Positions 19,465 to 33,456 of a DNA stretch of 64,000 nt are shown piece by piece. The notes beneath the pieces are model-generated. The model did not search any database. It saw nothing but the letters and a program-made list of their open reading frames with translations, and was not told the DNA's origin. The stretch spans positions 70,470-134,469 of the forward strand of contig BPJG01000001.1 of the NCBI GenBank assembly GCA_026004495.1, written 5' to 3'. Position 1 is the stretch's first letter. Each line of letters starts with the position of its first letter. The stretch comes from Candidatus Parcubacteria bacterium (GTDB lineage: Bacteria > Patescibacteriota > Minisyncoccia > UBA6257 > HR35). The translations under genes were made by a program, and so were the position numbers.

Positions 19465-20987
19465 TTTTGTTTAATACCTGCCTTAAAATAAATTGGATCT
19501 TCGTAGGGGTGAAGGAAAATTTCTGGTTCTAATTGTTTTTTATATTTTTCTGAAGCCGTTGAATAAAGATGATTATATTCTGTTGAATGTTTAATTAAGG
19601 AGTTTACTACTTCTTTTTTAATTCGTTCTTTTAATTTAAAAGCCGGTTTTATATTCTTTTTCATCTCTATATGAATATGCAATTTTTGATTGTAATTTTT
19701 ATCATAGACAACTTGCATTGTAAATTTACCTGTAATATATTTTTGTAGTTCTGATTTTAATAAAGCTTGTCTAATATATTCAGGATATAAAATAATTCCA
19801 AACAAGGATACAGTAAAGTCAGATCTTTCATAAACATATACGAATGGCAATTTAAGAATTTTATCTTTTATTTTCAACTTCTCAGATTCTTTAAAGATAT
19901 CGATGCCTACTTCTTTTAATCTTTTTATCATTTCATCAAAATAAATAACCCCTCCATAATCAGGGAAACTATATCTTAGAATAGGAATTGAATCTCCATG
20001 TCCCGAGGCCAAGATTAAGCCATCTTTTTCTTCAAACCAAACAATATAAGGATGGTATTGAGCTAAAGTAGGAGTTCTGGTAGCGTCTCTAAAGAGATTT
20101 CTAAAAACTTTATCTTTTTCAACAGCAATGTGCCTTATTAGGTTGGAAAAAGCTGTTTCATGTGCCATAGTTCCAAGTTCAACTGTACCATAAATATTGA
20201 TATTATCATTAAGCATATTTTCAAGATTGACCTTATTAGCGATATACTTTCTAAAGCTTTCAGGAAAGCTTTCAGCAGCATTTAAGATTCTTATTTTGAA
20301 TTTTTTAAATTGAACCCCGGCTGATACTGCTTCGTCGACTAAATCCTTGACAGAAGGAGGATAACCAACAAGAATTATTTGATCGTAATAAAATGATAGT
20401 TTTTGGAAAGTTTTTAATATTAATTCTTTATTTACTCCTATAGGAGCAACTGTTAATGGATATTTTTCGCTGAGTCTGTAGTAAACATAATAATTATGTA
20501 ACCCCCCAATCCATATACCTAATCCAAAGCTCAAAATAACTAAAGTATTAAATTTATTAATACCCCATTGATTTAAAAAGGCAGTTTCTAGTACATACAA
20601 TCCCTGTTCATCCAAATTTTCTCCTCTAATAAAATAAAAAGGCTCACCAGTAGAGCCCGAAGTTGCTGAAATTGTTGTTAGATTTAAATTTTCATTTGGA
20701 TAGAGTTGTTGATAAGGATATTGGCGAAGATAATTATTTTTATTCATAATTGGTAATTTAGCTAAGTCTCTAAAACCAGTAATTTCTCGATAATTAATTC
20801 CATTTTCTTTTAAGAATTGTTTATAAGCTGGTGTTGTTTCAATGGTAAATTTTACTAGTCTATCTATTTGTTTTTTGCCTAAATTCAACCAATAATCAGG
20901 TGGTCGTGTTTTTAATTCCTTCAATCTTTTATCTATGTTTTTGGGATATTTAAAATATATAAATTTTTTGTCCATTATGTTTCCCAT
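19449..20987 (-). CDS. PaaK / coenzyme F390 synthetase-like adenylate-forming ligase
   Basis: TISATSGSTGEPFYF (the SSGTTG-type AMP-binding loop) and PaaK-like N-terminal context. Confidence 0.65.
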   Translation of the reverse strand: MGNIMDKKFIYFKYPKNIDKRLKELKTRPPDYWLNLGKKQIDRLVKFTIETTPAYKQFLKENGINYREITGFRDLAKLPIMNKNNYLRQYPYQQLYPNENLNLTTISATSGSTGEPFYFIRGENLDEQGLYVLETAFLNQWGINKFNTLVILSFGLGIWIGGLHNYYVYYRLSEKYPLTVAPIGVNKELILKTFQKLSFYYDQIILVGYPPSVKDLVDEAVSAGVQFKKFKIRILNAAESFPESFRKYIANKVNLENMLNDNINIYGTVELGTMAHETAFSNLIRHIAVEKDKVFRNLFRDATRTPTLAQYHPYIVWFEEKDGLILASGHGDSIPILRYSFPDYGGVIYFDEMIKRLKEVGIDIFKESEKLKIKDKILKLPFVYVYERSDFTVSLFGIILYPEYIRQALLKSELQKYITGKFTMQVVYDKNYNQKLHIHIEMKKNIKPAFKLKERIKKEVVNSLIKHSTEYNHLYSTASEKYKKQLEPEIFLHPYEDPIYFKAGIKQKWVIK

Positions 20988-22072
20988 TGTATAAAGGGTG
21001 GTTTTTTAACCGAGATGGCCGATGGTGGATCAGCTTTTCCTATTCTCATTACTGCGGTTAAAATATAATTATTTTTATCTACTTTAAATAATTCACATAA
21101 TTTTTGATAAGAATTATTAATAATGTTTAGCTCTTCTTCATTAAAAATATTTTTGTTTCCAAAATTAGCCTGTTGCCAAAAGAAAAATATTCCTGTAATT
21201 AGATGACAAGCTAAGTTTAACTTTGTAGCTCTAAGCCAAATATTTTCTATAAGCCTACCAAGATTTATAAATTCCTTATCATTATTAATAATAGAAAAAC
21301 CAATCATTGTGTTAGTAGCTGAATACATTTTAACTGTGTCTTTATAAATAGTTCTTACGATTCCTAATTTCTTCATTAATTTAAAGAAAGTAGTATTCCT
21401 TAAAAGTTTAATCATTAATATTTGAGGTGGTTTAAACTCCATTGTTTTGATATATAATCCCCTTTCTCCCTTTTGAGCTTTTTCTTTATCAAAAATGATC
21501 TCATTAAAAAGCAATTTTCTAAGATGGTCATTGTTAAAATTCAAATAAGTGTCATAAGCCAATAAACTGCCAATTTCATTTATTAAATCACCTTCAATTA
21601 TTGAAACCTTACAATTAGAGAAAAAATTAACTTCATTTAATAAATATTTTTTTTCTTCTTCTGTTAAGGCCTCTTTTTTGTAATGGTTTCTATTGGTTGT
21701 TCTTTTTTTAATATATTCATATAAGTCATCTTTCTCTTCAACGCCTGACTTTTCTAAAATAATTGAGGCTATGATATTATTTTCAAATTTCTCATTTATT
21801 GTTATTATGGGATTTAATTTATAATGCTTGGCTGTAATTACTATATTTTCAATTAAAGCCCCACAAGCAATTAAAGTACCTCTATTATTGTAATTTAATA
21901 TTGGATGATCTTTTTCTGGTAAATATCTTATTTTTATCGTATTTTGAGAAGCAATAAATTCCCATGGTTGAGAATTGCTTCCAGATGGAGCATTTAAGCT
22001 TTCTTTTAAAATATTTTCTATTAAAGATTTTTCAGGCATTTTTATTAATAATATTTTACAGCATATAATCAA
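20975..22072 (-). CDS. Nitroreductase-superfamily protein, double length (SagB/ThcOx-like dehydrogenase candidate)
   Basis: LNAPSGSNSQPWEF near the N-terminus and a second RTTNR-type motif mid-protein. 365 aa against ~200 aa for a simple nitroreductase. Confidence 0.6.
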   Translation of the reverse strand: MIICCKILLIKMPEKSLIENILKESLNAPSGSNSQPWEFIASQNTIKIRYLPEKDHPILNYNNRGTLIACGALIENIVITAKHYKLNPIITINEKFENNIIASIILEKSGVEEKDDLYEYIKKRTTNRNHYKKEALTEEEKKYLLNEVNFFSNCKVSIIEGDLINEIGSLLAYDTYLNFNNDHLRKLLFNEIIFDKEKAQKGERGLYIKTMEFKPPQILMIKLLRNTTFFKLMKKLGIVRTIYKDTVKMYSATNTMIGFSIINNDKEFINLGRLIENIWLRATKLNLACHLITGIFFFWQQANFGNKNIFNEEELNIINNSYQKLCELFKVDKNNYILTAVMRIGKADPPSAISVKKPPFIQWET

Positions 22073-22075
22073 TAT

Positions 22076-23188
22076 TTACAATTTTTTTAATTTTTTGAGG
22101 AAATATTTTTGTTGTTTTTTAAAATCTTTAGGTAAAATCGATAACATTTTATCAATATTTAATAAAATTCTTCCTTCTTTAATTTTTCCACCAAGAATAA
22201 TTTTTTTTGATAAATAAGAAACAGCTACACCGCATAAAGTTGCAGCATTACCTAATTGTGGCCAAGAATAAATTGTTTTTCCAACTTCTATTAATGAATA
22301 TAACATTCTTGGCGTTGCTAAATTAGCGCCTGCAATTTTGGCTGTAATCTTTATCATATCTTGAGGATTTAAATTTTTTAGATTTTCGGAAGATAAATTT
22401 CCCAAAAGACCATGAAGAATAGGATAATTAGGATTTAAATCGTATCTTTCGATGTCAATTAAAATATTATCGGCATGGTCTGTTGCCATAATTACAGGAA
22501 TTCTATATTTTTTAGCTTTCTCTCTTATTTTTATTTTGAGATAGAGATTATCCATTTCTTCAATTAAAACATCAATTTTAGGTTTAAGTAAAAAATTATC
22601 TATATTTTTATAAGTAATACCTTCTGAATAAATTTTCAAGCTTGCATAAGGATTTATTTCATAAATTTGTTGAGCACAATAAATTGCTTTATTAATTCCA
22701 ATCGACGAAATAGGATAACGTAATCTATTTAAATTAGATAAAGAAATTTCATCATTATCAGCTATTTTCATATATCTAGCTCCACCTATCATTGCGAGTG
22801 TTAAGGCTATATGAGAACCCACACTAAGACCTGCTATCCCTATTCTTGATTTATAAAACTTTATTTGTTCATCTTTGGTTAGAAGGTAAATATTTCTCGC
22901 AGTTTTAGTTTCAAAAAATTCTTTTTCATCTAAACAGTGAATTAATTTTTTATTCCAGGGGAAATATATCCATTTACCAACTTTATCTAATGTTTTATTT
23001 TTTAATTTTTTCTTTAAAAAATTTTCAAAATCTTGTTGATATTCTTTGATAAATTTATATTTAGGATTTTTAATTAAAAAATAATCTTCTAATTGTTTTT
23101 CGTAATTATCTATGATTTCTGATGGGTTTAATCTCTTTTTTAATAGCTCTAAACTTATATGATGAGCGTTAAAAATTAATGGCTTCAT
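22076..23188 (-). CDS. E1-like ThiF/MoeB/HesA family adenylyltransferase with a ~100-aa N-terminal extension
   Basis: IGIAGLSVGSHIALTLAMIGGARYMKIADNDEISLSNLNRL, a Gly-rich nucleotide loop plus the D-x-D...SNLNR motif. Confidence 0.75.
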   Translation of the reverse strand: MKPLIFNAHHISLELLKKRLNPSEIIDNYEKQLEDYFLIKNPKYKFIKEYQQDFENFLKKKLKNKTLDKVGKWIYFPWNKKLIHCLDEKEFFETKTARNIYLLTKDEQIKFYKSRIGIAGLSVGSHIALTLAMIGGARYMKIADNDEISLSNLNRLRYPISSIGINKAIYCAQQIYEINPYASLKIYSEGITYKNIDNFLLKPKIDVLIEEMDNLYLKIKIREKAKKYRIPVIMATDHADNILIDIERYDLNPNYPILHGLLGNLSSENLKNLNPQDMIKITAKIAGANLATPRMLYSLIEVGKTIYSWPQLGNAATLCGVAVSYLSKKIILGGKIKEGRILLNIDKMLSILPKDFKKQQKYFLKKLKKL

Positions 23189-23212
23189 TGTCTAATTTGA
23201 ATATTATTTTAA

Positions 23213-23223
23213 ATTATATCACA
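23213..23223 (-). promoter_or_regulatory. Extended -10 element (TGATATAAT on the minus strand), about 25 nt upstream of the E1-like gene start
   Basis: Reverse complement of plus-strand 23213-23223 is TGTGATATAAT. Confidence 0.4.
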
Positions 23224-23272
23224 ATCAATATAGTTTTTAAAAAATTATTTATTTTTTACTTATTTATTTCTC

Positions 23273-23288
23273 AATTTCTTAAGAAATT
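23273..23288. promoter_or_regulatory. 16-bp perfect palindrome AATTTCTTAAGAAATT, a candidate operator upstream of the operon promoter
   Basis: Perfect dyad symmetry read directly from the sequence. Confidence 0.35.
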
Positions 23289-23427
23289 AAGAAAAACAAA
23301 ATTTTCTAATTTAATACATACGATGTCTTATTAATTTTTTTCATTATTCATCTCTATAGCAGAAAATAATGAAAATGCTTTGGAGTTTTGGAAAAATAAT
23401 AAAAACTTTGAATAAGGAGGTAAGACC

Positions 23428-23580
23428 ATGAGAGCCGTTCGAGTTGAAGAGCTAGAAATAATTTGTCACGAAGTAAGGCGCCGGATGTTCCAAACCATCC
23501 TCAATGCGGGAAGCGGTCATCTCTGTAGTTCGTCTTCCTCTGTGGAATGCATTTTTAGAAGTCTACAGAAATTTATAAAT
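23428..23580 (+). pseudogene. Transketolase / DXP-synthase N-terminal fragment (~45 aa of homology) behind a strong AAGGAGGT SD, then degenerate
   Basis: MRAVRVEELEIICHEVRRRMFQTILNAGSGHLCSSSSSVECIF resembles the SGHxGxSLSxxEI motif of transketolase N-termini. The ORF stops after 76 aa. Confidence 0.4.
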
Positions 23581-23893
23581 CTATATGTCTTCTGTTTAAT
23601 TTGTTTTGGTAATGTAAAATCCCATTCAGAATCTATACCCGGAGAACTGAAAGTATAAAGAAGTGATAGTCTGCTGTTTATAGAACTAGTAATTTCAAGA
23701 AGATGAGATAGAGTCATCCCATATCCGATAGAAGCAGAAACTGGTTTCTGGCTATTGTAATTGATCCCAAAAAGAAGTATTCTGCTGTCGATAAATTGTG
23801 TGGTAGTAAAATTGCTTCCGTGTATATTCTTTTGCCTACCCAGTTTTGTAGATGCCTCTCGACAAAAAATATATCAACGGCTAAAATTTATTG

Positions 23894-24723
23894 CTAAATT
23901 GAATAAAGCTCGTTGGCAATTGATGAAACCTTTTCATTTGGGTTTTTTATTTTGTGTAAAAACTCCTTGAAAACACCTCGCGCATTTGACTGATTGATTT
24001 CTAAATTTTTTAAGTAAGGGTATATTGCATTAAAAATACTAAGAAATTCTGAGTCAAACATTTGATCTATAACGCGGTCGCTCATGTTTGTACCAATTCA
24101 ATTATATCTCTCAAATGACCATTCGTCGTCTAGTTTTTCTAATGAGTCAGCAACCATGGCTTTTGCACCTGGAGGCGAAAATTTTTTTCATTTAGTTGCT
24201 TTACAGCTGGATCTTTGAATAACGGGTTAGGATAATTTAATGATTTTTCTCCGTTATGTTTAACGATAAATCTTTTCTCCTTGTAGATATCAAAGACCGA
24301 ACGAACGAATTCCTGATACAATTTGTTGTTTGTATTGAAGTAATTGTCGTAATCACAGCTTATCTGAATACTTTTCAAATCTTTCAGAATTACATCGCTA
24401 AAATAATTCAGAACGCTTATTGGTTCAGTAAATTTATACAAGTGACTTTTCGGGATCTTATAAAAATTGAAAATAAGATCTAATGTTCTTTGATCTGTAT
24501 CATTTAGTTTTCGTTTTTGTAGAAAATTTGATACTGCATTGGCAATTTTAAAAACGGTAGAACCGCTATAATGCATGCAAATTGGGAATCGAACAGAAAA
24601 TCCCTGTTTTCGTTTCCATCTAGCCCAAACGTCAGCCAATACAAAAATCCTTGCATGACTTAAACTCAGCGGGCACACCGGATGCATGTGAGCAATATCA
24701 ATAAAATATTTTTTATCTTCCAT
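23894..24723 (-). pseudogene. N-terminal fragment of a class I aminoacyl-tRNA synthetase (MetRS-like), split by a frameshift/stop near 24086-24139, with a degenerate HIGH motif
   Basis: LADVWARWKRKQGFSVRFPICMHYSGST matches MetRS ADVWVRYQRMRGHEVNF. CDYDNYFNTNNKLYQEFVRSVFDIYKEKRFI matches MetRS YDNYHSTHSEEN...GFI. Only ~260 aa are present, against more than 500 expected. GC is higher than the surroundings. Confidence 0.5.
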
Positions 24724-24726
24724 AGC

Positions 24727-25341
24727 TTATATAAATAACGGTTTTATTTTTTCAAAAATTTTTCGGTGCCCAATTTCGTTAGGATGAATACCATCTTCGG
24801 AAAGCAACCCTAGATAATCAGACCTTAGCCATTCTTCAGCAATACTCAAAAAGGCGATATTCTTTTTTTTACACTCATCGCCAATGATCTTTTCATACGT
24901 TACGATTTTTTCATTCAAAAAATATACATTGTCCAATGGTGTTGTTTTTCGTTCGTCAACCGGGGTTAAACCAACGAAAATAATGTGATTGGTGTATTTA
25001 CTTGCGTTCTTAATGAGAAGTCTTATATTGTTTTTGAAGCCTTCTGCATTTGTAATAGGGTTGTCTATGGATTCGACGCATTTTGTATCGTTGATACCTA
25101 CTGCGAAAATGATAGAGGAATGATCGTCGGGATAAATTTTTCTACATCTTGCTTCAGCCTCAATTGGAAGTCGTTTAATAACTTCATTGGTTGATTCACC
25201 CGAGATGCTTAAATTATGGGTAAGAGTAAAATCTTTATCTTTTTTATCAAATTGTTGAATTAAAAGAGAGGGCCAAGATTTTATTTTTTCCACTTTTCTA
25301 CCCGCCGCTATGCTGTCTCCAAAAATTAGTATGTTGTACAT
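24727..25341 (-). CDS. SGNH/GDSL-family hydrolase
   Basis: N-terminus IFGDSIA (GDS motif) and C-terminus DGIHPN (catalytic His block). Confidence 0.68.
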   Translation of the reverse strand: MYNILIFGDSIAAGRKVEKIKSWPSLLIQQFDKKDKDFTLTHNLSISGESTNEVIKRLPIEAEARCRKIYPDDHSSIIFAVGINDTKCVESIDNPITNAEGFKNNIRLLIKNASKYTNHIIFVGLTPVDERKTTPLDNVYFLNEKIVTYEKIIGDECKKKNIAFLSIAEEWLRSDYLGLLSEDGIHPNEIGHRKIFEKIKPLFI

Positions 25342-25412
25342 TAATTATTTTAAATTAAGTTTAATTTTTTATTTGTACGAATTATCTAATATAATAATGA
25401 CCTAATTATAAC

Positions 25413-26177
25413 TTAAAAATCAATAAATTTAAAAAGGAAAGGGAAAGATGGTGATCCAAGAAATATAGAAGTGCGTAAGTCCTCAAATCGCACCCCTTTT
25501 TCATTACTTTGAATGATTAACTTATATTTTTTGAGGTTCCAATAAGTCTTTATAAAGTTTCTTATTGCTTCTCGTCTGATTTGTTCTATAATCTTTTCAT
25601 AATAATTATCTAGAAATAATTTCTTAAAATAAAATAAAGCGTAAAGATTATCAAGAAAATAATCTCGAGGATCATCCATAACCAAATTGTTTCTATTAAT
25701 CAAATATTTTTTAATTAACTTAATTTCTTCAACTTCAGGTAGAATTTTTATTTCATTAAAAATAATATTTAAAATCTCCCTAATATTTTTTAGATCACTG
25801 CTAAATTCTATATAAACATAACCAAAATTATTGCCAGCTAGATAAGATCCAGAATAAACATCATAAATCAGACCATTTTCTTGTCTTAAAATTTTAAATA
25901 ATCTACTATTTTGCGGACCAGCTAATGTATTTAAAATAACCCCTTGTAAAATTGAATTCTCAACCCCAGTTTTTCTACTAATAGAAGGAATAATTAGACT
26001 AACACTTATGGTTTTTAGGTTGTGGTTGTGATTAAAAGCAAAATTTTTATTAAACCAATCTTTAGAATTAATGTGGATATCAATAGCTTTGGGATTTTTC
26101 TCAATATTATCAAATTGTTTATTCAATATATTTTTTAATTTATTAATCTTAAAGCCCCCTGTTATTGCTAAAATCAA
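25413..26177 (-). pseudogene. C-terminal (inactive-domain) half of an M16 family peptidase. It starts at TTG and the N-terminal catalytic half is absent
   Basis: ILNTLAGPQNSRLFKILRQENGLIYDVYSGSY..GNNFGYVYIEFSSDLKNIREI matches the M16 C-terminal domain consensus (GGGMSSRLFQELRE..GLAYSVYS). Confidence 0.45.
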
Positions 26178-26497
26178 TTGACTTCTCGAAATAATCTAAT
26201 ACAGTTACTACTGTCCCTTCTTTCGCCATCAAGGAAGATTCGTAACCTCCGCCACAACCGCATTCTATGCATTTTAAATTTATAAAATTTCCTATTATCG
26301 ATTTATAGTGATTATTTAATGCTTCGTTACAATAAAAATCCCATTTATCATTAATTTCAAATATATCGCCATGTTTTTTATAATAATTTAATCATTTTTT
26401 CCCAGTGATTATCCCAAAAGCGTCTTTCATCTAAAGCAAAGTCTTTTCGATGAAAAAATAATAAATCTATTATTTTTGTTAGCCATCTGTTAATCAT
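26170..26497 (-). pseudogene. Frameshifted N-terminal fragment of a class I SAM-dependent methyltransferase
   Basis: Two frames together read MINRWLTKIIDLLFFHRKDFALDERRFWDNHWEK... and ...CIECGCGGGYESSLMAKEGTVVTVLDYFEKSI (motif I), then terminate. Confidence 0.4.
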
Positions 26498-26860
26498 TTT
26501 TTTATTAATCTTTTTATTATTTTTAGGGGCCTAAAATTTCTACTTATTTCTTCAAAATTTTTTTTACATATATCTCTATTATCTTTTGGGTAGTTACAAA
26601 GATAAATATCTAAAGTAAGGTAATTCAATTCAGGCCAAGTATGAATAGTAATGTGAGATTCAACCAAGCTAATCGGATCAGTGAAACCACCAGCAGAAAA
26701 TTTATAATAAAAGGATCCTAATTCGTGTATATTATATTTTTTAACAATGTTGTGAATGTATTTTTTCGTTTGATTTAAAGATTTCAGTTCTTCAACTTCT
26801 TTTGTGGTAATTTCTCCTAATATATGAAGTCTGGTAAATGGTCCGTTCTTGTTTTATTCA
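26494..26860 (-). pseudogene. Second S-adenosylmethionine decarboxylase (speH-type) copy with a 1-nt frameshift near its 5' end
   Basis: LVESHITIHTWPELNYLTLDIYLCNYP carries the AdoMetDC signature. The ATG at 26858-26860 is in the +1 frame relative to the body (MNKTRTDHLPDFIY* versus NGPFTRLHILGEITTKE). Confidence 0.5.
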
Positions 26861-26885
26861 TACACATCCTTTTATTGAATGATAA

Positions 26886-27920
26886 CTAATGTGTTCCTTT
26901 TTCTACAATTTCAAAAAGGTTTTTTGAGCAATCAATTACGGCCTTAACACCTAATGGTATTGTAAGTATAGGATCAGTATGGCCTATATCAACATTAGCA
27001 AGAATTGGAAATTTATAACCAGTAGTTCTTATTTTAACTAATCTTATGGCTTCTTTTTTTTCTTTATCAGAATAACCAAAAAACCTTCCAATTATCATTC
27101 CTTTGACTTTTTTAAAAATACCAGATAACTCAAGATCAGTTAAATAAGAATCTATATTTTCTATTCTTTCTCCTCTTGTAAAGTCATTATCACTCTCTGG
27201 TATCTCCCAAAAAAGAATTTTGTTAGTAAAATCAGGCCAATATTTTGTCCCTCTTAAATGCATCATTGAAGTAATACAGCCACCCAAAATTGGTCCTTCT
27301 ACTTTACCTTGTTTTAACCATTGCCAACCTTTGTTCTTTTTCATTTTTCTTGGTCTTCTTAGATCTTCTTTTTTAAACCAATCAAGAATTTCATAGGTCC
27401 AACAAGAAGAAGGCTTAATCACACCGATAGGTTTGTCTTCCATTAATGCTTTTTTAAAATATTCTTCAGTATAAGGGAGTATTCTTGGGTTTTCTGCAAA
27501 TTGAGTAAGAGCTGCTGGCCCATAAAATGTTATTAAATTTGCCTGGGTATAAAACGCAAAATGTAAAACTGTAGCGTCGGAATAACCAACAAAAATTTTT
27601 GGGTTTTTCTTTATGAGATTAAAATCTAAATATTTTAAAACTTGATTAGAGTGATTTCCTCCTATAAAACAAATTATTGCTTTAACTTCTTTATCTTTAA
27701 AAAATAAATTAATATCTTCTGCTCTTTCCTTAGGCGAACCGGCAGTATAACCAGTAATATTTAAAGCATTTTTACCAATTTTAACTTTAAATCCCATATT
27801 GTTTAACATTTTAATAGCTCTTTTTGTTCTGTGTGGTACTAAACCAGCAAGTGGGGCTGATGGACTTATTAATCCGATTGTATCTCCTAATTTAAGTTTT
27901 GGTGGTTTAATTAATTTCAT
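26886..27920 (-). CDS. LD-carboxypeptidase (peptidase S66, LdcA/MccF family)
   Basis: LKLGDTIGLISPS... layout and length (344 aa) are typical of S66. Confidence 0.75.
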   Translation of the reverse strand: MKLIKPPKLKLGDTIGLISPSAPLAGLVPHRTKRAIKMLNNMGFKVKIGKNALNITGYTAGSPKERAEDINLFFKDKEVKAIICFIGGNHSNQVLKYLDFNLIKKNPKIFVGYSDATVLHFAFYTQANLITFYGPAALTQFAENPRILPYTEEYFKKALMEDKPIGVIKPSSCWTYEILDWFKKEDLRRPRKMKKNKGWQWLKQGKVEGPILGGCITSMMHLRGTKYWPDFTNKILFWEIPESDNDFTRGERIENIDSYLTDLELSGIFKKVKGMIIGRFFGYSDKEKKEAIRLVKIRTTGYKFPILANVDIGHTDPILTIPLGVKAVIDCSKNLFEIVEKGTH

Positions 27921-27933
27921 ACCTATTTTAAAG

Positions 27934-28227
27934 CTATTGGAAAATTATGGATGAATTTGACCCTCTACACATAGGAATGGTTTTGTTTCCCAGATAAAAG
28001 GTAATTTTAAAATTACCTGGATAAATCTTTCTATCCCCATTCCCCAACCGCAGTGAATTTTTTGTTTTTTTACTACTCTTGAATCGATATATGGTTGATA
28101 ATCTGTATAACATAGCCCCTTTATATATAACAAAATCTTTGTCTTTAATAATATCTAAAATTACTCCTCTTAATTCATTGTAGGCTATATCAGTGCAGTC
28201 AGTTATAAAAACAATTCGCTTTTTCAT
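27934..28227 (-). pseudogene. Chimeric remnant: DUF62 (SAM hydroxide adenosyltransferase) N-terminus in one frame and a class II aaRS (Asp/Asn/Lys-type) motif-3 C-terminus in the overlapping frame
   Basis: MKKRIVFITDCTDIAYNELRGVILDII resembles DUF62 TDFG..D.YVG..KGVIL. The overlapping 62-aa frame has HCGWGMGIERFIQVIL, matching class II motif 3 (GGFGLGLERLV). Confidence 0.4.
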
Positions 28228-28229
28228 AA

Positions 28230-29027
28230 TTAAATTAAATTTAAATTAATTATTCGTTTTTTATCAAAAAGTTTTTTAAAATCGTGTCCAATCTTGTCCA
28301 TCAAAAAAACTTTTGCTTTAGAACATTTTGTTCTTTGAAAAAAAATAGAACTGGTGTAGTTAATTGTTTCATCTGATTTACCGTGAAATATAATGATGTT
28401 AGGGTAATTTTTATCCATTTTGATAAAAGAGTCAGCCTCCTTGCCGGAAAAATATTTATCCCAACATTTATTTTCTATTCCCCTGAAAGCAAATTTATAA
28501 CCTCTTCTAAGAAATTCGAGGAAAGATATATTGAATTCATAAAATGCTTCTATATTTTTTGGGTTTTCTAGATATGCTAAAACCTCTTTTTTATGTAAAA
28601 ATAGTAAAGGAGCAAATAATAAAACATTCTTTACATCATTTTTGGATACTTTTGCAGAGATAACCGGATTACCAGCAAAACTGTAACCAATTAAATGTAG
28701 ATTTTTGTAATTCCAATATATCTCTTTATTGTCAAAAGTTTTTATCCCTTTTTTCTTTTTTACGAACTCAACTGCTAATTCTACAGTTTTTTTGCAGTTC
28801 TTATAGGTAAAACTGCCTCCACTTAACCAGCTTCCCAGATAATAAACGCTGAAGAAAGCAGTTTTTTTATCTACCTTATCAATAAAAAAATCTTTATCGA
28901 TTATTTGCGGTAACCCAGGGAAATAAATAAAAATATTTTCGACATTTACCTTGCCATTGTTAAAACTATCTTTTGTATAGTAGAAATGCAGTGCTACATT
29001 TTTATAGATAAAAAGTTCTAATTCCAT
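28230..29027 (-). CDS. Alpha/beta-hydrolase fold protein
   Basis: GYSFAG nucleophile elbow, FHGKSDE and GHDF blocks. Confidence 0.6.
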   Translation of the reverse strand: MELELFIYKNVALHFYYTKDSFNNGKVNVENIFIYFPGLPQIIDKDFFIDKVDKKTAFFSVYYLGSWLSGGSFTYKNCKKTVELAVEFVKKKKGIKTFDNKEIYWNYKNLHLIGYSFAGNPVISAKVSKNDVKNVLLFAPLLFLHKKEVLAYLENPKNIEAFYEFNISFLEFLRRGYKFAFRGIENKCWDKYFSGKEADSFIKMDKNYPNIIIFHGKSDETINYTSSIFFQRTKCSKAKVFLMDKIGHDFKKLFDKKRIINLNLI

Positions 29028-29890
29028 ATTTTTTTAAGCTAATAAATATTTTTCCCTTTACCGCATCGATAATAATTTTTTTATTTCTATAGTTATCAAT
29101 TTTTCCTTTGATTATTTTTGATTCTACAAGACAAAAAATATTAAACTCTCTCGCTATGACTGCTATGTGTAAAAGAATGCCTCCAGTTATTATTAATCCA
29201 TTAATAAATGGAATTTTTTTAATCAACGAAATGTCCAGATTGCGTTTTACTAAAACAATATCATTTTATATTTATTTTATCATAATCTTCAATGTTTTTA
29301 ATTATTTTTAAAAATCAACTTGCGATACCCTTGTAAGCAATATTTCCTGTTCCTATGATTTTACTTTTGTCAAAAGTATAATTTATAATTTGGGGATATT
29401 TGTTCAGAGTTGTAATATTTCTACTTTGGAAAATATAAATTTCCTTACCGTCCCATCCCCATTCAATATCTAAGTATTCCCAAATATACCTTCAAGATTT
29501 AATGCTATCTTTGACAATTTTTTCAAAAATTTAGATTTCAGGTTATTTATTTTGGCTTTTTCAATTACCTTGATAATTGGTTTTTTATGACAACTAACAA
29601 CAGAATCTCCCAAGTCTTGGGTATATTCTACAATCATCTTATTGATATTTTGATTAAATGGATCGGCAGTAAATATCACTCCCGCAACACCTACGGGAAT
29701 CAATTCTTGAATGGCAATAGCCATACTTTCAAATTCCAGTCTGATATCATTTATTCGCGCGTATATTTTAGCATTATCACTAAATAAAGATCGATAACAT
29801 AATATAATTGCCTTTATAATATTTTCTTCCCCTTTTATATTTAAGAAGCTTGAATATTGACCAGCAAAGCTGAAAAAAGGGGGGATCCTC
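29002..29890 (-). pseudogene. PEP synthase (ppsA-like) N-terminal and phospho-His region, broken by several frameshifts
   Basis: SFAGQYSSFLNIKGEENIIKAIILCYRSLFSDNAKIYAR (PpsA SFAGQQETFLNV...ASLFNDRAISYR), MAIAIQELIPVGVAGVIFTADP (PpsA MAVGVQRMV..SGVMFS) and GGILLHIAVIAREFNI (phospho-His loop GGRTSHAAIIARE) lie in three different frames. Confidence 0.5.
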
Positions 29891-30073
29891 TACCCACACT
29901 TTTCTTTGATTATTTTTATTTTTTTGGATTTAGTTCCTACTTCTAAATTATCATAATCTTCTATAAGTTTTATATTATGGTAAATGAAATGTTTATCACA
30001 CATTAGCTTTAAAACCTCTTCTTTTAAAAAGTTCCTTTCATCTTGGATTAATCAAATATTATTTTATAGGTCC

Positions 30074-30163
30074 TTATTTTTCCCAACGATAAATAGTAAT
30101 ATATCTAACATTAAGTAATTTCGCTATTTCAATTGTGGTCAAATAAACGTTCTTATTTTTCAT
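30074..30163 (-). CDS. Very small HTH protein (AlpA/Xis-like), 29 aa
   Basis: Manual translation gives MKNKNVYLTTIEIAKLLNVRYITIYRWEK, which matches the excisionase-type HTH signature ...LLxVxxxTIYRW. Confidence 0.3.
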   Translation of the reverse strand: MKNKNVYLTTIEIAKLLNVRYITIYRWEK

Positions 30164-30558
30164 ACAATTCATATCATTAAATGACTTTGTTATACTTATA
30201 ATATAATTGCTGAACACTTTGCTAATGGTTTAGTATAATAATAGTAAAGGTCGAACACATCACAAACTATCTACTAAAACAGTTATCATAACTAATTATA
30301 ATAAAAAAGCTTTTATTCAAGAACAAGGGTCAAATGTTCTTGACATGGGCGGATTAAAAATAAAAATCAAAAATTAGAAGAAATAGAGAGATTAGAAGAA
30401 ATAGAGAGATTAGAAATCAAATATCTTTACATCAGACCTTGACGACCTCATAACGAGTTTAATAAAAGGGCTATCTAAATATGGAAAAAGATATTTTAGA
30501 TATGTTTTATTAGTTTTAGATGATAAATAGTTTTATATAATAAAATATTTATATACAA

Positions 30559-31020
30559 ATGAATGATTACTATAAAATATATAATTATTTTTTGACCGCC
30601 ATTAAAAAAGATAATCCTTATGGTACTCCCCCAAAAATTAGTGGAGGAAATACAAAAAATATTAAAAATGCTTTATTAAAATTTTTAATTACCCTCGAAA
30701 AAATAACAACTTCGTCAAAATTAAAATATCAAGATATTTCTATATTTGTTTTAACTGACCCCAAATTTTTCTTTCCTCATAAAAAATCGAACATTACATT
30801 AGATGATTATGGAGCGCATTTAAAAGTAAGTACCAAGGGTTTGTTGTATCAAATCTTTCAAGCTTTGGATTTATCTAGACATTTTAATTTAGTCATAAAA
30901 TTATATAATCTACTTTCAGATTTACATTTATACTTATCAATGAATGATATCCCCTCAGTAGAAATATATAAAAATAAAACTTTGAAATTATTGAAAAAGT
31001 TAAAAGAATTGGTAATTTGA
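30559..31020 (+). CDS. Hypothetical protein
   Basis: 153-aa ORF with no motif. Confidence 0.35.
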   Translation: MNDYYKIYNYFLTAIKKDNPYGTPPKISGGNTKNIKNALLKFLITLEKITTSSKLKYQDISIFVLTDPKFFFPHKKSNITLDDYGAHLKVSTKGLLYQIFQALDLSRHFNLVIKLYNLLSDLHLYLSMNDIPSVEIYKNKTLKLLKKLKELVI

Positions 31021-31308
31021 GAGTTGTTCTAATGAATTTTCAAGAAATTTTACAAAATTTAAACTTGACGGAGGAGTATTTTGATATTCAAAGAAGGATA
31101 AAAAAATTTAAGAGTTGATCAAATTTGTTCTTTAAGTGAATTGGTTGGGGGTCAAATTTAAAAGGTTAAATTTAAAAGAGAAGATTTAGAAAAGATAGCA
31201 AAATTAATTAAAGAAACAGACTCTGTTAATTTAGATACTATAATAACAGAAGCAAATTCAATTAAAGATCTTATTTTTTGGTTAGAAATTTTTGAAAAAT
31301 ATAAATAA

Positions 31309-31878
31309 ATGTATATTTCTCAGGGTAGATTTTGTTATATTGAAGAACTAACAACAGCCAATGATAAAGAATTATTTGAATTAATGAAAGAAAATGAAGA
31401 AGAGTATAGAAATTTAATTAGTGATCAACCCCTACCTCAAACTTATGAAGAATTTCGGGAAACATTGAAAACTTGGTTTACTCATGGAAGAAATTTTCAG
31501 TTTTTAGTCAGAAAAAGAGAAGGAGACAAAGTTATAGGTACTTTTTTCTTTTATTTTTGGGATCAAGAAAATAAAACAACTAAAATATCAGCCTATTTTA
31601 TTCCTGAAGTAAGAAAGACACCATTAATTGAAGAAGCATTAGGATTAGCTTTGATGTTTGCTTATAAAATAATGCATGTAGAAAAAGTAGAATTTTATGT
31701 TTATAGAGAAAACACTGAAATGCTTAACTTAGTTAAAAAATATAAGATTAATAAAGTATGTGAATCTCAAAGCGAAGTTAATCCTGAAAGAACATTAATA
31801 AACTTAGAAATCTCAAAAGAACAATTACAAGAAATATATAAAAAATTAAGAAGATTTTATGAGAGAAAGATAAGGTAA
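31309..31878 (+). CDS. GNAT-family N-acetyltransferase (probable)
   Basis: Length and pattern (VIGTFFFYFWD..., ALGLALMFAYKIMHVEKVEFYVYRENTEMLNLVKKYKI) resemble RimJ/RimL-like GNATs. Confidence 0.5.
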   Translation: MYISQGRFCYIEELTTANDKELFELMKENEEEYRNLISDQPLPQTYEEFRETLKTWFTHGRNFQFLVRKREGDKVIGTFFFYFWDQENKTTKISAYFIPEVRKTPLIEEALGLALMFAYKIMHVEKVEFYVYRENTEMLNLVKKYKINKVCESQSEVNPERTLINLEISKEQLQEIYKKLRRFYERKIR

Positions 31879-32140: not shown

Positions 32141-32309
32141 ATGGAAAAAAGAAACATTCTCAATAAATATCAAAAAAGATATATTTTCTCAAGATAACTT
32201 AAGTAAAAATTTCTATTTAACTGGTGGAACAGCCTTATCAAATTTATTAGTAACTTTTTATTTAAATAATAAAATTGATGAAAATTTAGATTTTTATATC
32301 AGAAATTGA
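32141..32309 (+). pseudogene. Frameshifted N-terminal fragment of an AbiEii/AbiGii-family nucleotidyltransferase toxin
   Basis: Two frames read MEKRNILNKYQKRYIFS / QDNLSKNFYLTGGTALSNLL...DENLDFYIRN*, matching the FxLKGGTAL and SEDIDF motifs of AbiEii. Confidence 0.35.
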
Positions 32310-32362
32310 TTTTACGTGATAAAATAATTACATATATTTTTTTTAATAAATTATAATTTTTT

Positions 32363-33409
32363 ATGATAAAAGAATTTAAAAGAGATCAACATAAAAATCA
32401 AACTTTATTTGAAAGATTCTTTGAATATAGACAACAAATAAAGAATTTATTTTTTCTATTAAAAAGAATTTTAACGATACCTATTATATACTATGATTAT
32501 CCGAGTGAAAAGATAAAAAATAGTCTTCAAAGAATTATTGACAACTTAGAAAAGAAGTACCCAGGTGATCAATGTCGTAAATATTTAACCTATCTTTTAC
32601 TAAAAGAAAATATAATTGGAGAAAGGGGAATAGTTCCTAAAAAAAGTGAGATTGAAAAGTTTGATTTTAAAGGCGAAGATTCTATTATTTATCAACTACA
32701 ATTATTTATTAAAAACTGGCAAAAAGAAAATGAGGAAATAATAAAACTTAGAAAAGAAAAAAATTTTAAGTCATATTTAGAATTATTAAAATTAACCGAG
32801 AATAATTTAAAAAATAAAAAAATTTTAGATATTGGAACAGGAGAAAATTATTTTATTGACTATTTATATGATAAAGAATTAACAAGTGGTTCTTATGGGT
32901 TAGATATTAAACCTCCAATATTAAATGAGGGACATTTTTTTATTGGTAAATTAGAAGAATTATCTTTTCAATCGGAATCCTTCGATTTGGTCACTTGTGT
33001 AAGTTCTTATCCTGGAATTTTTGTTTTTGAACTAATAGAATCAGAAGAAGTAAATGAATTAAATGAAGAAAAAATAAGAGAATTAATTAGGCAAGGATTA
33101 GAAGAAATGCTAAGAGTAACTAAAAAAGGTGGTGAAATAAGAATTACTCCATTTGCAAAAGAAATTATTTTTGATGAAGAAAAAATTAAGAAATACAAAA
33201 AAATTTATGAAAGATTAATTAAACAAAAAAAGCTAAATGAAATTATAATAGAGGAAATTGAAAATTATTGTAAGGAAACTCAAGCAAAATTAGAAATGGA
33301 ATTTCTTAAAAAAGAAAAATGTCCTATTTATATTAATAAAGATAACCAACCATTTAAAACAAAAAATTATTATATTGCTAATAATTATGTAATTATCATT
33401 AAAAAATAA
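32363..33409 (+). CDS. SAM-dependent methyltransferase-domain protein with a K/E-rich C-terminal extension
   Basis: ILDIGTGENYFIDYL (motif I), GLDIKP and FDLVTC. Confidence 0.55.
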   Translation: MIKEFKRDQHKNQTLFERFFEYRQQIKNLFFLLKRILTIPIIYYDYPSEKIKNSLQRIIDNLEKKYPGDQCRKYLTYLLLKENIIGERGIVPKKSEIEKFDFKGEDSIIYQLQLFIKNWQKENEEIIKLRKEKNFKSYLELLKLTENNLKNKKILDIGTGENYFIDYLYDKELTSGSYGLDIKPPILNEGHFFIGKLEELSFQSESFDLVTCVSSYPGIFVFELIESEEVNELNEEKIRELIRQGLEEMLRVTKKGGEIRITPFAKEIIFDEEKIKKYKKIYERLIKQKKLNEIIIEEIENYCKETQAKLEMEFLKKEKCPIYINKDNQPFKTKNYYIANNYVIIIKK

Positions 33410-33428
33410 AAAAAGAATAAATTTACTC

Positions 33429-33456
33429 TTGACAAATTTTTTTATTGAGGTATAAT
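33429..33456 (+). promoter_or_regulatory. Sigma70-type promoter for tandem unit 1 (TTGACA, 16-nt spacer, TATAAT)
   Basis: Both hexamers match the consensus: 33429-33434 and 33451-33456. Confidence 0.55.

What the first reader, a model, noticed from the sequence alone, without database searches (positions are those of the whole stretch)
23428..30200. Seven-kb graveyard of gene fragments and pseudogenes, partly with foreign (higher GC) composition
Between the operon and about 30.2 kb, almost every reading frame is a remnant. There is a transketolase N-terminus (~45 aa) behind a perfect SD. A MetRS-like N-terminal ~260 aa is split in two. An M16 peptidase C-terminal half starts at TTG. A methyltransferase N-terminus is split over two frames. 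A second speH copy has a 5' frameshift. A chimeric ORF reads as a DUF62 N-terminus in one frame and a class-II aaRS motif 3 in the other. A PEP synthase is shredded over three frames. An Xis-like 29-aa HTH is present. Between these sit three apparently intact hydrolases (SGNH, S66 LD-carboxypeptidase, alpha/beta). The 23.43-24.72 kb segment is visibly GC-richer than the rest of the window. This is the signature of a decaying laterally acquired island, or of a duplicated backup region, not of random noise. Intact paralogs of speH (56385-56753) and of the PEP-utilising enzyme (2-235) exist in the same window.
Basis: partly seen in the sequence, partly recalled or inferred. Interest (0 to 1): 0.7.

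Follow-up and report, generated by a model that had tools for sequence, protein, structure and literature searches.

The report
Decaying patchwork of acquired accessory operons
A 6.8-kb stretch of a tiny hot-spring Parcubacteria genome is the wreck of three accessory operons that survive intact in other Patescibacteria; deletions, frameshifts and stop codons have killed most genes and left three hydrolase genes whole, an ordinary kind of decay reconstructed here in detail.

Summary
Window 23428-30178 contains eight gene remnants and only three full-length genes. The host is a Candidatus Parcubacteria MAG (KatS3mg094).

Each remnant maps onto an operon found intact in other Patescibacteria metagenomes:
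- A: SGNH esterase, LeuRS-like paralog, methyltransferase and a convergent transketolase (L025).
- B: AsnRS-core paralog, MccF-type S66 hydrolase, SpeH and methyltransferases (about 20 loci).
- C: HTH-PPDK_N-swivel kinase, 263-aa protein and DUF62 (L023, L024).

In the window these are cut by four deletion junctions, and the remnants carry at least 16 further lesions. One roughly 2.9-kb deletion fuses the LeuRS-like gene to transketolase codon 41.

- "MetRS-like" is an archaeal-type LeuRS paralog lacking the editing domain.
- The "Xis HTH" is the N-terminus of the dead kinase.
- The alpha/beta-hydrolase label is unverified.

Third-position GC is 0.31-0.46 in module A against 0.150±0.028 in host genes, but S66 and the M16 half look host-like. 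The duplicated-backup idea fails: the broken speH is 34% identical to the host copy and 74% to the cluster type. An independent assembly reproduces 8,068 bases exactly. No mobility gene, att site or sister genome was found.

This is a known kind of thing. The recurrent aaRS-paralog clusters are the interesting lead.

The parts
23428..23547 (+). Transketolase N-terminal remnant (codons 1 to about 40 of about 648), with its own Shine-Dalgarno AAGGAGG at 23414-23420. The called 76-aa ORF reads on into the antisense of the LeuRS-like remnant.
   Evidence: tblastn of the L025 transketolase: aa 4-41, 66% identity, E 2.6e-10. Pfam DXP_synthase_N E 0.012. GC 49%, GC3 0.46.
23535..24723 (-). Pseudogene of a LeuRS-like paralog. 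The family is 475-499 aa, related to archaeal-type LeuRS, lacks the CP1 editing domain, and has SLSH in place of HIGH. The window keeps aa 5-397 in three frames: frameshifts near 24180 and 23750, in-frame TGA at 24100-24098, TAG at 23896-23894, TAA at 23890-23888, and the last 78 codons deleted.
   Evidence: tblastn of intact P0132. Stop codons listed. PDB 1wkb/1wz2 LeuRS E 2e-14. NCBIfam leuS_arch E 3e-33 for P0132. GC3 0.32.
24727..25341 (-). Intact SGNH/GDSL hydrolase gene (204 aa), the conserved upstream partner of the LeuRS-like gene.
   Evidence: Pfam Lipase_GDSL_2 E 1e-18. 70-72% identical to the partner gene in L020, L021, L022 and L025. omega about 0.10. GC3 0.31, z = 5.7.
25413..26195 (-). 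C-terminal half of an M16 peptidase. The ORF starts at TTG 26177; the catalytic N-terminal domain is missing. It abuts the truncated methyltransferase, and its composition is host-like.
   Evidence: Pfam Peptidase_M16_C E 2.7e-18, profile 20-162/181 starting at residue 1. GC3 0.18. No relative with E <= 1e-10 apart from the self-match.
26167..26497 (-). Pseudogene of the cluster methyltransferase MT1. Only aa 1 to about 110 of 261 remain, with one frameshift near 26390. It is 3'-truncated at the junction with the M16 half.
   Evidence: tblastn of L031 MT1: aa 6-37 at 26482-26387 and aa 36-110 at 26391-26167, 68% identity. Weak Pfam methyltransferase hits. Sequence read.
26494..26860 (-). Pseudogene of a cluster-type SpeH (S-adenosylmethionine decarboxylase). 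It is complete, and the ES/H self-cleavage motif is intact, but a 2-nt insertion 12-18 nt after the ATG puts the start out of frame.
   Evidence: Pfam AdoMet_dc E 5.8e-19 on the stop-to-stop frame. DNA alignment with five orthologues shows the insertion. 74% identical to L031 SpeH against 34-36% to the host speH.
26886..27920 (-). Intact S66 serine hydrolase of the MccF type (344 aa). It is the most persistently retained gene of module B.
   Evidence: Pfam Peptidase_S66 and S66C. PDB best hits are MccF and MccF-like proteins, E 1e-53 to 1e-62, against LD-carboxypeptidases at 1e-9 to 1e-20. 64-83% identical copies occur in about 40 loci. omega 0.11-0.18.
27945..28115 (-). 3' remnant (last 55 codons, with motif 3 and the native stop) of the AsnRS-core-like class-II aaRS paralog that precedes S66 in intact clusters.
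   Evidence: tblastn of L031 aaRS2: aa 313-367 of 367, 70% identity, E 1e-19. Pfam tRNA-synt_2 E 0.0018. The intact L031 protein matches the AsnRS core and AsnA in NCBIfam.
28126..28227 (-). 5' remnant (codons 1-34 of about 248) of a DUF62/SAM_HAT_N gene. It is fused by a deletion to the aaRS remnant, and together they give the chimeric 97-aa ORF 28227-27934.
   Evidence: tblastn of L023 and L024 DUF62: aa 1-34, 74% identity, E 1e-10 to 4e-11. Same gene order as in L023 and L024.
28230..29027 (-). Intact 265-aa ORF, the conserved middle gene of module C. It is possibly a serine hydrolase, but the family is unassigned.
   Evidence: 70-72% identical over its full length to the 263-aa gene in L023 and L024. 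omega 0.11. No Pfam, NCBIfam or PDB sequence match. Invariant GYSF[AS]G, HGKSD and GHD motifs. The single-sequence AF2 model is unusable, pLDDT 41.
29035..30178 (-). Pseudogene of an HTH_17-PPDK_N-PEP_utilizers (swivel-His) kinase, a family of about 441-449 aa. Lesions: stops TAA 30076, TAA 30061, TGA 30040 and TAG 29892; frameshifts near 30028, 29480 and 29300; a 64-codon internal deletion at 29880/29881. The 'Xis-like HTH' ORF (30217-30074) is its N-terminus.
   Evidence: tblastn of P0009 and P0022. Stops listed. Architecture of about 60 homologues. Pfam PPDK_N E 2e-22 and PEP-utilizers E 6e-7. PDB rifampin-phosphotransferase-type 'PEP synthase' E 2e-19.

Best explanation
Window 23428-30178 is a non-functional relic. 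Three accessory operons typical of Patescibacteria landed side by side in this Parcubacteria chromosome next to an M16 peptidase gene, and they are now being erased by the usual bacterial deletion bias.

Shown:
- Each module has an intact counterpart elsewhere.
- Four deletion junctions are visible: LeuRS-like|transketolase at about 23540, MT1|M16 at about 26180, DUF62|aaRS2 at about 28120, and a 64-codon deletion inside the kinase at 29880.
- The remnants also carry at least 16 point lesions: 7 in-frame stops of all three kinds, 7 frameshifts, the internal deletion and the 2-nt insertion in speH.
- A single deletion of about 2.9 kb in an L025-like block (SGNH, LeuRS-like, methyltransferase, convergent transketolase) reproduces the window's odd convergent junction exactly.

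Inferred:
- The modules were acquired laterally from other Patescibacteria. Module A and the transketolase piece are the most recent or come from the most GC-rich donor.
- Inactivation is recent relative to divergence from sampled relatives. Pseudogene pieces still show dN/dS of 0.06-0.25.
- The three uninterrupted hydrolase genes (MccF-type S66, SGNH, 265-aa ORF) are still kept by selection because each is useful alone, while their partner genes are not.
For: - Host identity: (MAG KatS3mg094, 634-kb contig).
- Remnant identities and lesion map.
- Module C intact in L023 and L024 with the same gene order.
- Module A intact in L025, including the convergent transketolase. Independent lesions in L020, L021 and L022.
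- Module B in about 20 loci, in many states of decay.
- Composition: host GC3 0.150±0.028 (n=50, max 0.218). Island values are 0.32, 0.31 and 0.46 for module A and the transketolase piece, 0.24-0.25 for module C, and 0.165-0.18 for S66 and M16_C. GC 34.3% against 23.5%.
- dN/dS of remnants 0.04-0.25, similar to the intact genes at 0.10-0.18.
- Lesion density 16 per 3.0 kb gives P = 2e-6 for three lesion-free hydrolase ORFs.
- An independent Logan assembly of run DRR290133 reproduces 23322-31389 at 100%, across all internal junctions.
- Mobile-element hints in related loci: a large serine recombinase beside module B in L031, 91% identical to a fragment beside module C in L024; a tRNA abutting the module B remnant in L005; GIY-YIG genes in L021 and L006.
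- Literature: Patescibacteria carry many genomic islands, mostly exchanged among themselves (PMC12455944).
Against: - The window has no recombinase, transposase, tRNA or direct repeats at the borders.
- No sister genome was found, so there is no empty-site proof of insertion.
- S66 and the M16 half have host-like GC3. Part of the region may be old or native.
- The left junction (23296-23321) is not covered by the independent assembly, and the reads are from the same sample.
- The Poisson argument assumes one lesion rate for modules that may differ in age.
- Low dN/dS between lineages does not prove that the intact ORFs are functional now.
Confidence: 0.8

Rival explanations
1. In-situ reductive decay of vertically inherited genes. 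The three operons were ancestral in this Parcubacteria lineage and are simply being lost, with no lateral transfer.
For: All modules are typical of Patescibacteria. S66 and M16_C have host-like GC3 of 0.165-0.18. No mobility genes or att sites occur in the window.
Against: GC3 of SGNH and the LeuRS-like gene is 5.7-6.3 SD above 50 host genes, and the short transketolase piece is about 11 SD above. GC3 of the 265-aa ORF is 3.4 SD above. In an AT-driven genome, old residents should have ameliorated. The modules sit in unrelated contexts in every other locus, and no other sampled locus has all three together. Related loci show recombinase and tRNA associations.
Confidence: 0.12
2. Assembly chimera. 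Reads from several co-occurring Patescibacteria were joined into one contig, producing false junctions and apparent fragments.
For: The data come from a metagenome. The modules have differing GC. The 26 nt between Logan contigs L002 and L001 at the left border are not independently covered.
Against: An independent k-mer assembly gives one unbranched 8,068-nt contig, 100% identical across all four internal junctions and 1.2 kb into the right flank. A chimera cannot explain 7 in-frame stops and 7 frameshifts inside otherwise colinear genes. The LeuRS-like|transketolase junction has exactly the geometry expected from one deletion in a real gene block.
Confidence: 0.04
3. Duplicated backup copies of host genes (speH, PEP-utilising enzyme, aaRSs) that became redundant and decayed.
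For: An intact speH (56385-56753) and a PEP-utilizers_C gene end (2-235) exist in the window.
Against: The broken speH is 34-36% identical to the host speH but 74% identical to cluster-type SpeH elsewhere. tblastx of the region against the rest of the window finds no other paralogy. The kinase family has no PEP-utilizers_C domain. The aaRS-like genes are truncated paralog families with degenerate motifs, not copies of housekeeping synthetases.
Confidence: 0.02
4. The genes are functional despite appearances, through an alternative genetic code, programmed frameshifting or naturally split genes.
For: Several homologues of the LeuRS-like gene in other metagenomes also end near residue 170-195. 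Every locus with sequence there keeps an uninterrupted N-terminal reading frame of about 170-300 residues, except L022.
Against: The in-frame stops are a mix of TAA, TAG and TGA. The rest of the window reads cleanly in code 11. Lesions lie at different positions in each locus. Whole domains are deleted: 64 kinase codons, 78 LeuRS-like codons, about 214 DUF62 codons and about 310 aaRS2 codons. Intact 441-499-aa versions exist.
Confidence: 0.02

Closest known systems
Genomic islands of Patescibacteria (Candidate Phyla Radiation), as surveyed in aquifer MAGs (PMC12455944)
   Same: An accessory block with atypical composition inside a very small genome. Its genes have their closest relatives in other Patescibacteria. 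It includes 'translation'-category genes (aaRS-like), a category that paper reports as enriched in islands.
   Different: This one is mostly dead, with 8 of 11 features being remnants. It is a composite of at least three operons and carries no mobility gene. That paper does not mention pseudogenes.
Pseudogene decay by deletion bias in bacterial genomes (general knowledge: bacterial pseudogenes are short-lived and removed by deletions)
   Same: A mix of frameshifts, nonsense codons and deletions that fuse neighbouring remnants. Remnants keep recognisable coding signatures.
   Different: The decay is concentrated in one 6.8-kb patch of an otherwise densely coding 64-kb window. Intact hydrolase genes are interleaved between the dead partners.
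MccF, the S66 serine peptidase that gives self-immunity to microcin C, and its stand-alone homologues (PDB 3TLA, 3GJZ, 4E5S, 5F5X)
   Same: The window's S66 protein is the same length class (344 aa). It matches MccF-type structures far better than LD-carboxypeptidases. In the alignment it keeps the GYSD, E and GHT positions. Like many MccF homologues, it occurs without a producer operon.
   Different: No mcc operon is present (no MccA, MccB, MccC, MccD or MccE). In intact relatives the neighbours are an AsnRS-core paralog, SpeH, methyltransferases and AlaRS-core paralogs. The substrate is unknown, and the activity was not tested.
PEP synthase / rifampin phosphotransferase superfamily (ATP-grasp PPDK_N plus swivel phosphohistidine domain)
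   Same: The dead gene has PPDK_N and PEP-utilizers domains, and its best PDB hit is the Listeria rifampin phosphotransferase entry.
   Different: The family is only about 445 aa. It has an N-terminal HTH_17 domain and neither a PEP-binding TIM barrel nor a rifampin-binding domain. It is always followed by a 263-aa protein and DUF62.
Truncated aminoacyl-tRNA synthetase paralogs (archaeal AsnA-type asparagine synthetase derived from AsnRS; non-canonical LeuRS duplicates)
   Same: The AsnRS-core paralog lacks the anticodon-binding domain and also scores against AsnA models. The LeuRS-like paralog keeps the Rossmann fold but lacks CP1.
   Different: In the LeuRS-like family the position of the HIGH signature reads SLSH in every member examined, so aminoacylation activity is doubtful. 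None of these paralogs is intact in the window.

Membership tests
Horizontally acquired genomic island | Base or codon composition deviating from the host genome | tested here: met
   GC3 is 0.31-0.46 for module A and the transketolase piece and 0.24-0.25 for module C, against 0.150±0.028 in the host. It is not met for S66 and M16_C (0.165-0.18).
Horizontally acquired genomic island | Mobility genes (integrase, recombinase or transposase) within or at the border | tested here: not met
   tblastn with the L031 serine recombinase and the GIY-YIG genes finds nothing in the window. The HTH ORF is part of the kinase gene.
Horizontally acquired genomic island | Insertion next to a tRNA gene and/or flanking direct repeats | tested here: not met
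   The nearest tRNAs are at 50.9-55.2 kb. Only short AT-rich chance repeats flank the region. A tRNA abuts the related remnant in L005.
Horizontally acquired genomic island | Absent from closely related genomes (empty site); patchy distribution | tested here: inconclusive
   The patchy distribution in unrelated contexts is shown. No sister genome of the host was among 62 loci, so no empty site is available.
Pseudogene (remnant of a protein-coding gene) | Significant similarity to a full-length gene family, with disrupted or partial coverage | tested here: met
   Eight remnants were mapped onto intact references with coordinates and lesions.
Pseudogene (remnant of a protein-coding gene) | Lesions are real, not sequencing or assembly artefacts | tested here: inconclusive
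   An independent assembly of the same run gives the identical sequence. No reads or second sample were available.
MccF-type S66 peptidase | Peptidase_S66 N- and C-terminal domains, full length | tested here: met
   Pfam E 1.4e-40 and 1.4e-28.
MccF-type S66 peptidase | Closer to MccF than to LD-carboxypeptidase LdcA | tested here: met
   PDB: MccF and MccF-like E 1e-53 to 1e-62; LdcA-type 1e-9 to 1e-20. The NCBIfam LdcA model scores 99.9 bits against a cutoff of 378.
MccF-type S66 peptidase | Ser-His-Glu catalytic triad | tested here: met
   GYSD, WEIPE and GHTDP align with the corresponding positions of the B. anthracis homologue. This is alignment-based only.
MccF-type S66 peptidase | Hydrolysis of aminoacyl-nucleotide (processed microcin C or aminoacyl-sulfamoyl-adenosine) substrates | not testable with these tools
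   Needs a biochemical assay.
Alpha/beta-fold serine hydrolase (265-aa ORF) | Recognisable alpha/beta hydrolase fold or family match | tested here: inconclusive
   No match in Pfam, NCBIfam or PDB, by single sequence or by 3-sequence profile. AF2 pLDDT 41. Only the ordered invariant motifs GYSF[AS]G ... HGKSD ... GHD point that way.
Leucyl-tRNA synthetase (functional) | HIGH and KMSKS signatures, CP1 editing domain, full length of about 800-950 aa | tested here: not met
   The family is 475-499 aa, matches only LeuRS residues about 31-180 and weakly about 630-709, and has SLSH for HIGH. Scores are 115-126 bits against cutoffs of 648-677.

The most novel reading that the evidence does not exclude
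The wreck preserves the outline of undescribed Patescibacteria gene clusters. These pair truncated aaRS paralogs (AsnRS core, two AlaRS cores, CP1-less LeuRS) with SAM-using enzymes (SpeH, two methyltransferases, DUF62 SAM hydrolase) and with hydrolases (MccF-type S66, SGNH, the 265-aa ORF, and HIT in L006).

The most novel reading not excluded is that module B makes or modifies an aminoacyl-nucleotide toxin, by a logic like microcin C or the aminoacyl-sulfamoyl-adenosines but built from aaRS paralogs rather than a ribosomal peptide and MccB. S66 would then be the immunity gene. Genomes such as this one would keep only the immunity or detoxifying hydrolases after losing production, an 'orphan immunity' pattern. 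That would explain why S66 is the best-retained gene across about 40 loci.
Probability: 0.15. Interest if true: 0.7.

Novelty: new member of a known kind. Interest (0 to 1): 0.4.

Why it matters
For this genome the result is mainly housekeeping. About 3.4 kb of called or callable ORFs are remnants and should not be counted as metabolic capacity. These include the 76-aa 'transketolase', the 194-aa 'hypothetical' LeuRS-like piece, the 97-aa chimera and the HTH ORF.

More generally, the case shows in unusual detail how a roughly 1-Mb-class streamlined genome takes up accessory operons from its relatives and discards them.

The by-product is probably the more valuable lead. Three recurrent, widely distributed and frequently decaying operons combine synthetase paralogs with an MccF-type hydrolase and SAM enzymes. 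I found no description of them in the searched literature.

Tried and rejected
- Att sites and direct repeats around the region: only short AT-rich chance matches.
- Promoter and terminator scan: no enrichment over shuffles.
- Rfam and tRNA scan of the window: nothing in or next to the region.
- Phage carriage: S66, the LeuRS-like protein and the kinase have no relatives in IMG/VR viral contigs.
- Sister genome or empty site: none of 62 fetched loci shares host flanking genes in synteny.
- Verifying DUF62 and transketolase by PDB or Pfam alone failed because the fragments are too short. Synteny-guided tblastn settled both.
- Alpha/beta-hydrolase assignment of the 265-aa ORF could not be settled: Pfam, NCBIfam, PDB phmmer, a PDB profile search and single-sequence AlphaFold (pLDDT 41) were all uninformative. 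Only window sequences and homologous-protein hits may be submitted for folding, so no alignment could be used.
- I first thought the frameshift near LeuRS-like residue 325 was shared between the window and L022, which would mean an ancestral pseudogene. Comparison with intact P0132 showed the two shifts are several codons apart and independent.
- My last homologous-protein run, on M16_C, used too strict an E-value (1e-10) and returned only the self-hit.
- Alternative genetic code: rejected, because all three stop codons occur in frame.
- The idea that the upstream ThiF-like gene is MccB-like was dropped. It is the N-terminal half of a split Rv1355c-family protein.

Full report
SOURCE AND SETTING

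The window is bacterial. It encodes LepA, a bacterial-type ThrRS and an M23/AmpD murein hydrolase, and it is extremely AT-rich at 24.2% GC.

The 194-aa ORF at 24139-24723 is identical to 'hypothetical protein KatS3mg094_089 [Candidatus Parcubacteria bacterium]' on a 634-kb contig. The M16 half is KatS3mg094_091.

A Logan assembly of run DRR290133 contains an 8,068-nt contig that is 100% identical to window 23322-31389. Neighbouring Logan contigs cover 20881-23295 and 32208-33456. A 26-nt gap at the left border is therefore not independently covered.

CHECK OF THE OBSERVATION

Pfam scans of ORFs and of stop-to-stop frames confirmed these items:
- a class-I aaRS-like piece;
- an SGNH hydrolase;
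- an M16_C-only ORF;
- an AdoMet decarboxylase domain lacking an in-frame start;
- an S66 peptidase;
- a class-II aaRS motif-3 piece;
- PPDK_N and PEP-utilizers pieces;
- a weak methyltransferase N-terminus;
- a weak HTH.

GC of 23428-24723 is 34.3%. Outside the region, 1.3-kb windows average 23.5±2.9% with a maximum of 31.6%.

Third-position GC is more telling. Fifty host ORFs average 0.150±0.028, maximum 0.218. Values inside the region are:
- LeuRS-like ORF 0.32;
- SGNH 0.31;
- transketolase piece 0.46;
- 265-aa ORF 0.24;
- kinase pieces 0.18-0.25;
- S66 0.165;
- M16_C 0.18.

So the 'foreign composition' is real but confined to part of the region.

WHAT THE FRAGMENTS ARE

Related loci allowed every remnant to be placed in an ancestral operon.

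Module C. The closest homologues of the 'PEP synthase' pieces are about 60 proteins of 441-449 aa. Their architecture is HTH_17/MerR, PPDK_N and PEP-utilizers, and they come from Patescibacteria.

Mapping P0009 onto the window shows one gene from 30178 to 29035. It has:
- three stops in the HTH linker;
- a frameshift near 30028;
- a TAG at 29892;
- a clean 64-codon deletion at 29880/29881;
- two more frameshifts near 29480 and 29300.

The 'Xis-like HTH' is therefore this gene's N-terminus.

In a Nealsonbacteria MAG (L023) and a JGI contig (L024), the kinase is followed by a 263-aa protein and a 248-aa DUF62/SAM_HAT_N gene. The window's intact 265-aa ORF is 70-72% identical to that middle gene. 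Window 28227-28126 is DUF62 residues 1-34.

Module B. S66 homologues of 64-83% identity occur in about 40 loci from genomes and metagenomes. In about 20 of them the order is:
- HD hydrolase;
- AsnRS-core paralog (367 aa);
- S66;
- SpeH (122 aa);
- MT1 (261 aa);
- MT2 (268 aa);
- one or two AlaRS-core paralogs on the other strand.

The window keeps:
- residues 313-367 of the AsnRS-core paralog, down to its native stop;
- S66, intact;
- SpeH with a 2-nt insertion just after the ATG, relative to five orthologues;
- MT1 residues 6-110 with one frameshift.

The DUF62 stump of module C is fused directly to the aaRS stump of module B at about 28120.

MT1 ends at about 26170, where an M16 peptidase gene begins in mid-protein at the start of its M16_C domain.

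Module A. The 'MetRS-like' ORF belongs to a small family whose JGI name is 'leucyl-tRNA synthetase'. An exhaustive search with the downstream frame found intact members of 475-499 aa.

Archaeal-type LeuRS is the best match by PDB (1WKB/1WZ2, residues 34-180 and weakly 629-709) and by NCBIfam. The CP1 editing domain is absent, and HIGH reads SLSH in all members.

The window holds residues 5-397 in three frames, with TGA, TAG and TAA in frame.

The gene always follows the SGNH gene (L020, L021, L022, L025). In L025 the block is:
- SGNH;
- LeuRS-like (475 aa, intact);
- methyltransferase (264 aa);
- a convergent 648-aa transketolase.

The window's + strand fragment 23434-23547 is residues 4-41 of that transketolase. 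One deletion of about 2.9 kb accounts for the window's geometry. It removes the last 78 LeuRS-like codons, the methyltransferase and 94% of the transketolase.

HOW IT DECAYED

The other three loci with module A also carry broken LeuRS-like genes:
- L022: a CGA to TGA change plus two frameshifts.
- L021: the reading frame ends after about residue 300, followed directly by a GIY-YIG gene.
- L020: truncated after about residue 172-185.

All of these lesions lie at positions different from the window's.

Module B shows the same picture across loci. There are frameshifts or stops in aaRS2, SpeH or MT1 in at least nine loci, S66-only loci, and a few broken S66 copies.

Yet dN/dS between the window's remnants and intact orthologues is 0.04-0.25. 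The intact genes give 0.10-0.18. The only higher value is 0.53, for the last LeuRS-like segment. Most of the divergence (dS about 1) therefore accrued under purifying selection, and inactivation is recent in each lineage.

This fits a source-sink picture. The operons are maintained somewhere, spread among Patescibacteria, and decay where they are not needed.

Hints of the vehicle come only from related loci:
- a large serine recombinase beside module B in L031, 91% identical over residues 47-157 to a fragment beside module C in L024;
- a tRNA gene abutting the module B stump in L005;
- GIY-YIG genes in L021 and L006;
- an HD-gene stump of module B directly upstream of module A in L021.

No relatives were found on viral contigs.

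WHAT STILL WORKS

The remnants carry 16 lesions in 3.0 kb. At that density, the chance that S66, the 265-aa ORF and SGNH (2.4 kb together) are all lesion-free is about 2e-6. This is a crude estimate, because the modules may differ in age.

I infer that these three genes are still under selection.

S66 is of the MccF type. PDB E-values are 1e-53 to 1e-62 for MccF and MccF-like proteins, against 1e-9 to 1e-20 for LD-carboxypeptidases. The GYSD, E and GHT positions are aligned. In L006, L033 and L034 it sits next to a HIT-family gene.

Its likely role is hydrolysis of an aminoacyl- or peptidyl-nucleotide-like compound. That rests on analogy with MccF and is not a test.

The 265-aa ORF could not be assigned to any family.

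RIVALS

- Assembly chimera. This is unlikely, because an independent assembly reproduces all internal junctions, and a chimera cannot create stops and frameshifts inside colinear genes.
- Duplicated host genes. This is rejected by identities and by domain content.
- Recoding or programmed frameshifting. This is rejected by the mix of stop codons, the non-conserved lesion sites and the deleted domains.
- Vertical inheritance followed by loss. This remains possible for S66 and the M16 half, whose composition is host-like. It is unlikely for module A.

NOVELTY

Genomic islands exchanged among Patescibacteria are documented, at up to 13% of genome length (PMC12455944). Pseudogene decay by deletion is textbook knowledge. 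The finding is therefore a well-resolved new example of a known phenomenon.

The operons themselves are less ordinary. They are synthetase paralogs coupled to an MccF-type hydrolase, SpeH, methyltransferases and DUF62. Searches for MccF with Patescibacteria returned nothing, and searches on orphan MccF homologues and on aaRS paralogs returned nothing relevant.

Noticed in passing
L031:326-9328 (also L026, L027, L032, L035, L042-L044, L049): A conserved cluster of about 8 kb in many Patescibacteria metagenomes: RelA/SpoT-type HD hydrolase, AsnRS-core paralog, MccF-type S66, SpeH, two methyltransferases, and two AlaRS catalytic-core paralogs on the opposite strand. It lies next to a large serine recombinase in L031. 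Many copies carry stops or frameshifts.
   Followed up: partly
L021:1770-2180: The LeuRS-like reading frame ends after about residue 300 and a GIY-YIG endonuclease gene follows directly. This may be a homing-endonuclease insertion that splits the gene. A related GIY-YIG gene sits upstream of HIT and S66 in L006, L033 and L034.
   Followed up: partly
L024:8983-13326: Next to intact module C lie a B12-binding radical SAM gene, a 340-aa TyrRS/TrpRS-like (tRNA-synt_1b) gene and a serine recombinase fragment 91% identical to the one in L031. This is another synthetase paralog in the same kind of neighbourhood.
   Followed up: no
window 17144-23188 (- strand): The operon upstream of the finding encodes a ThiF-like protein and a double nitroreductase that together match the two halves of the Rv1355c family (a split gene). 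It also encodes a PaaK-like adenylating enzyme, a methyltransferase and a histidine kinase. GC3 is slightly above the host mean.
   Followed up: partly
window 2073-3941 (+): A 622-aa pyridine nucleotide-disulfide oxidoreductase has a complete GxxExxY (TIGR04256) domain at residues 198-311, between its N- and C-terminal halves. This looks like a domain or gene insertion that preserves the frame.
   Followed up: no
window 198-1502 (+): An enolase-like ORF scores well below the TIGR01060 cutoff (214 against 300 bits) and matches in two stretches. It may be a divergent or insertion-bearing enolase.
   Followed up: no
L022:5327-5329: TGA replaces a conserved CGA (Arg) codon in the LeuRS-like gene of this JGI contig. 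It was read as a nonsense mutation, not as recoding.
   Followed up: partly
window 30373-30408: A perfect tandem duplication of an 18-nt unit (ATTAGAAGAAATAGAGAG) lies in the 340-nt non-coding gap between the dead kinase and the 153-aa ORF of unknown family at 30559-31020.
   Followed up: no
L005:7699-8025: The module B remnant (aaRS2, S66, and a SpeH stump of about 45 codons) ends right next to a tRNA gene. The record is labelled Pacearchaeota although its genes resemble those of Patescibacteria. L008 is labelled Aenigmatarchaeota. These may be mis-binned contigs or cross-domain transfer.
   Followed up: no
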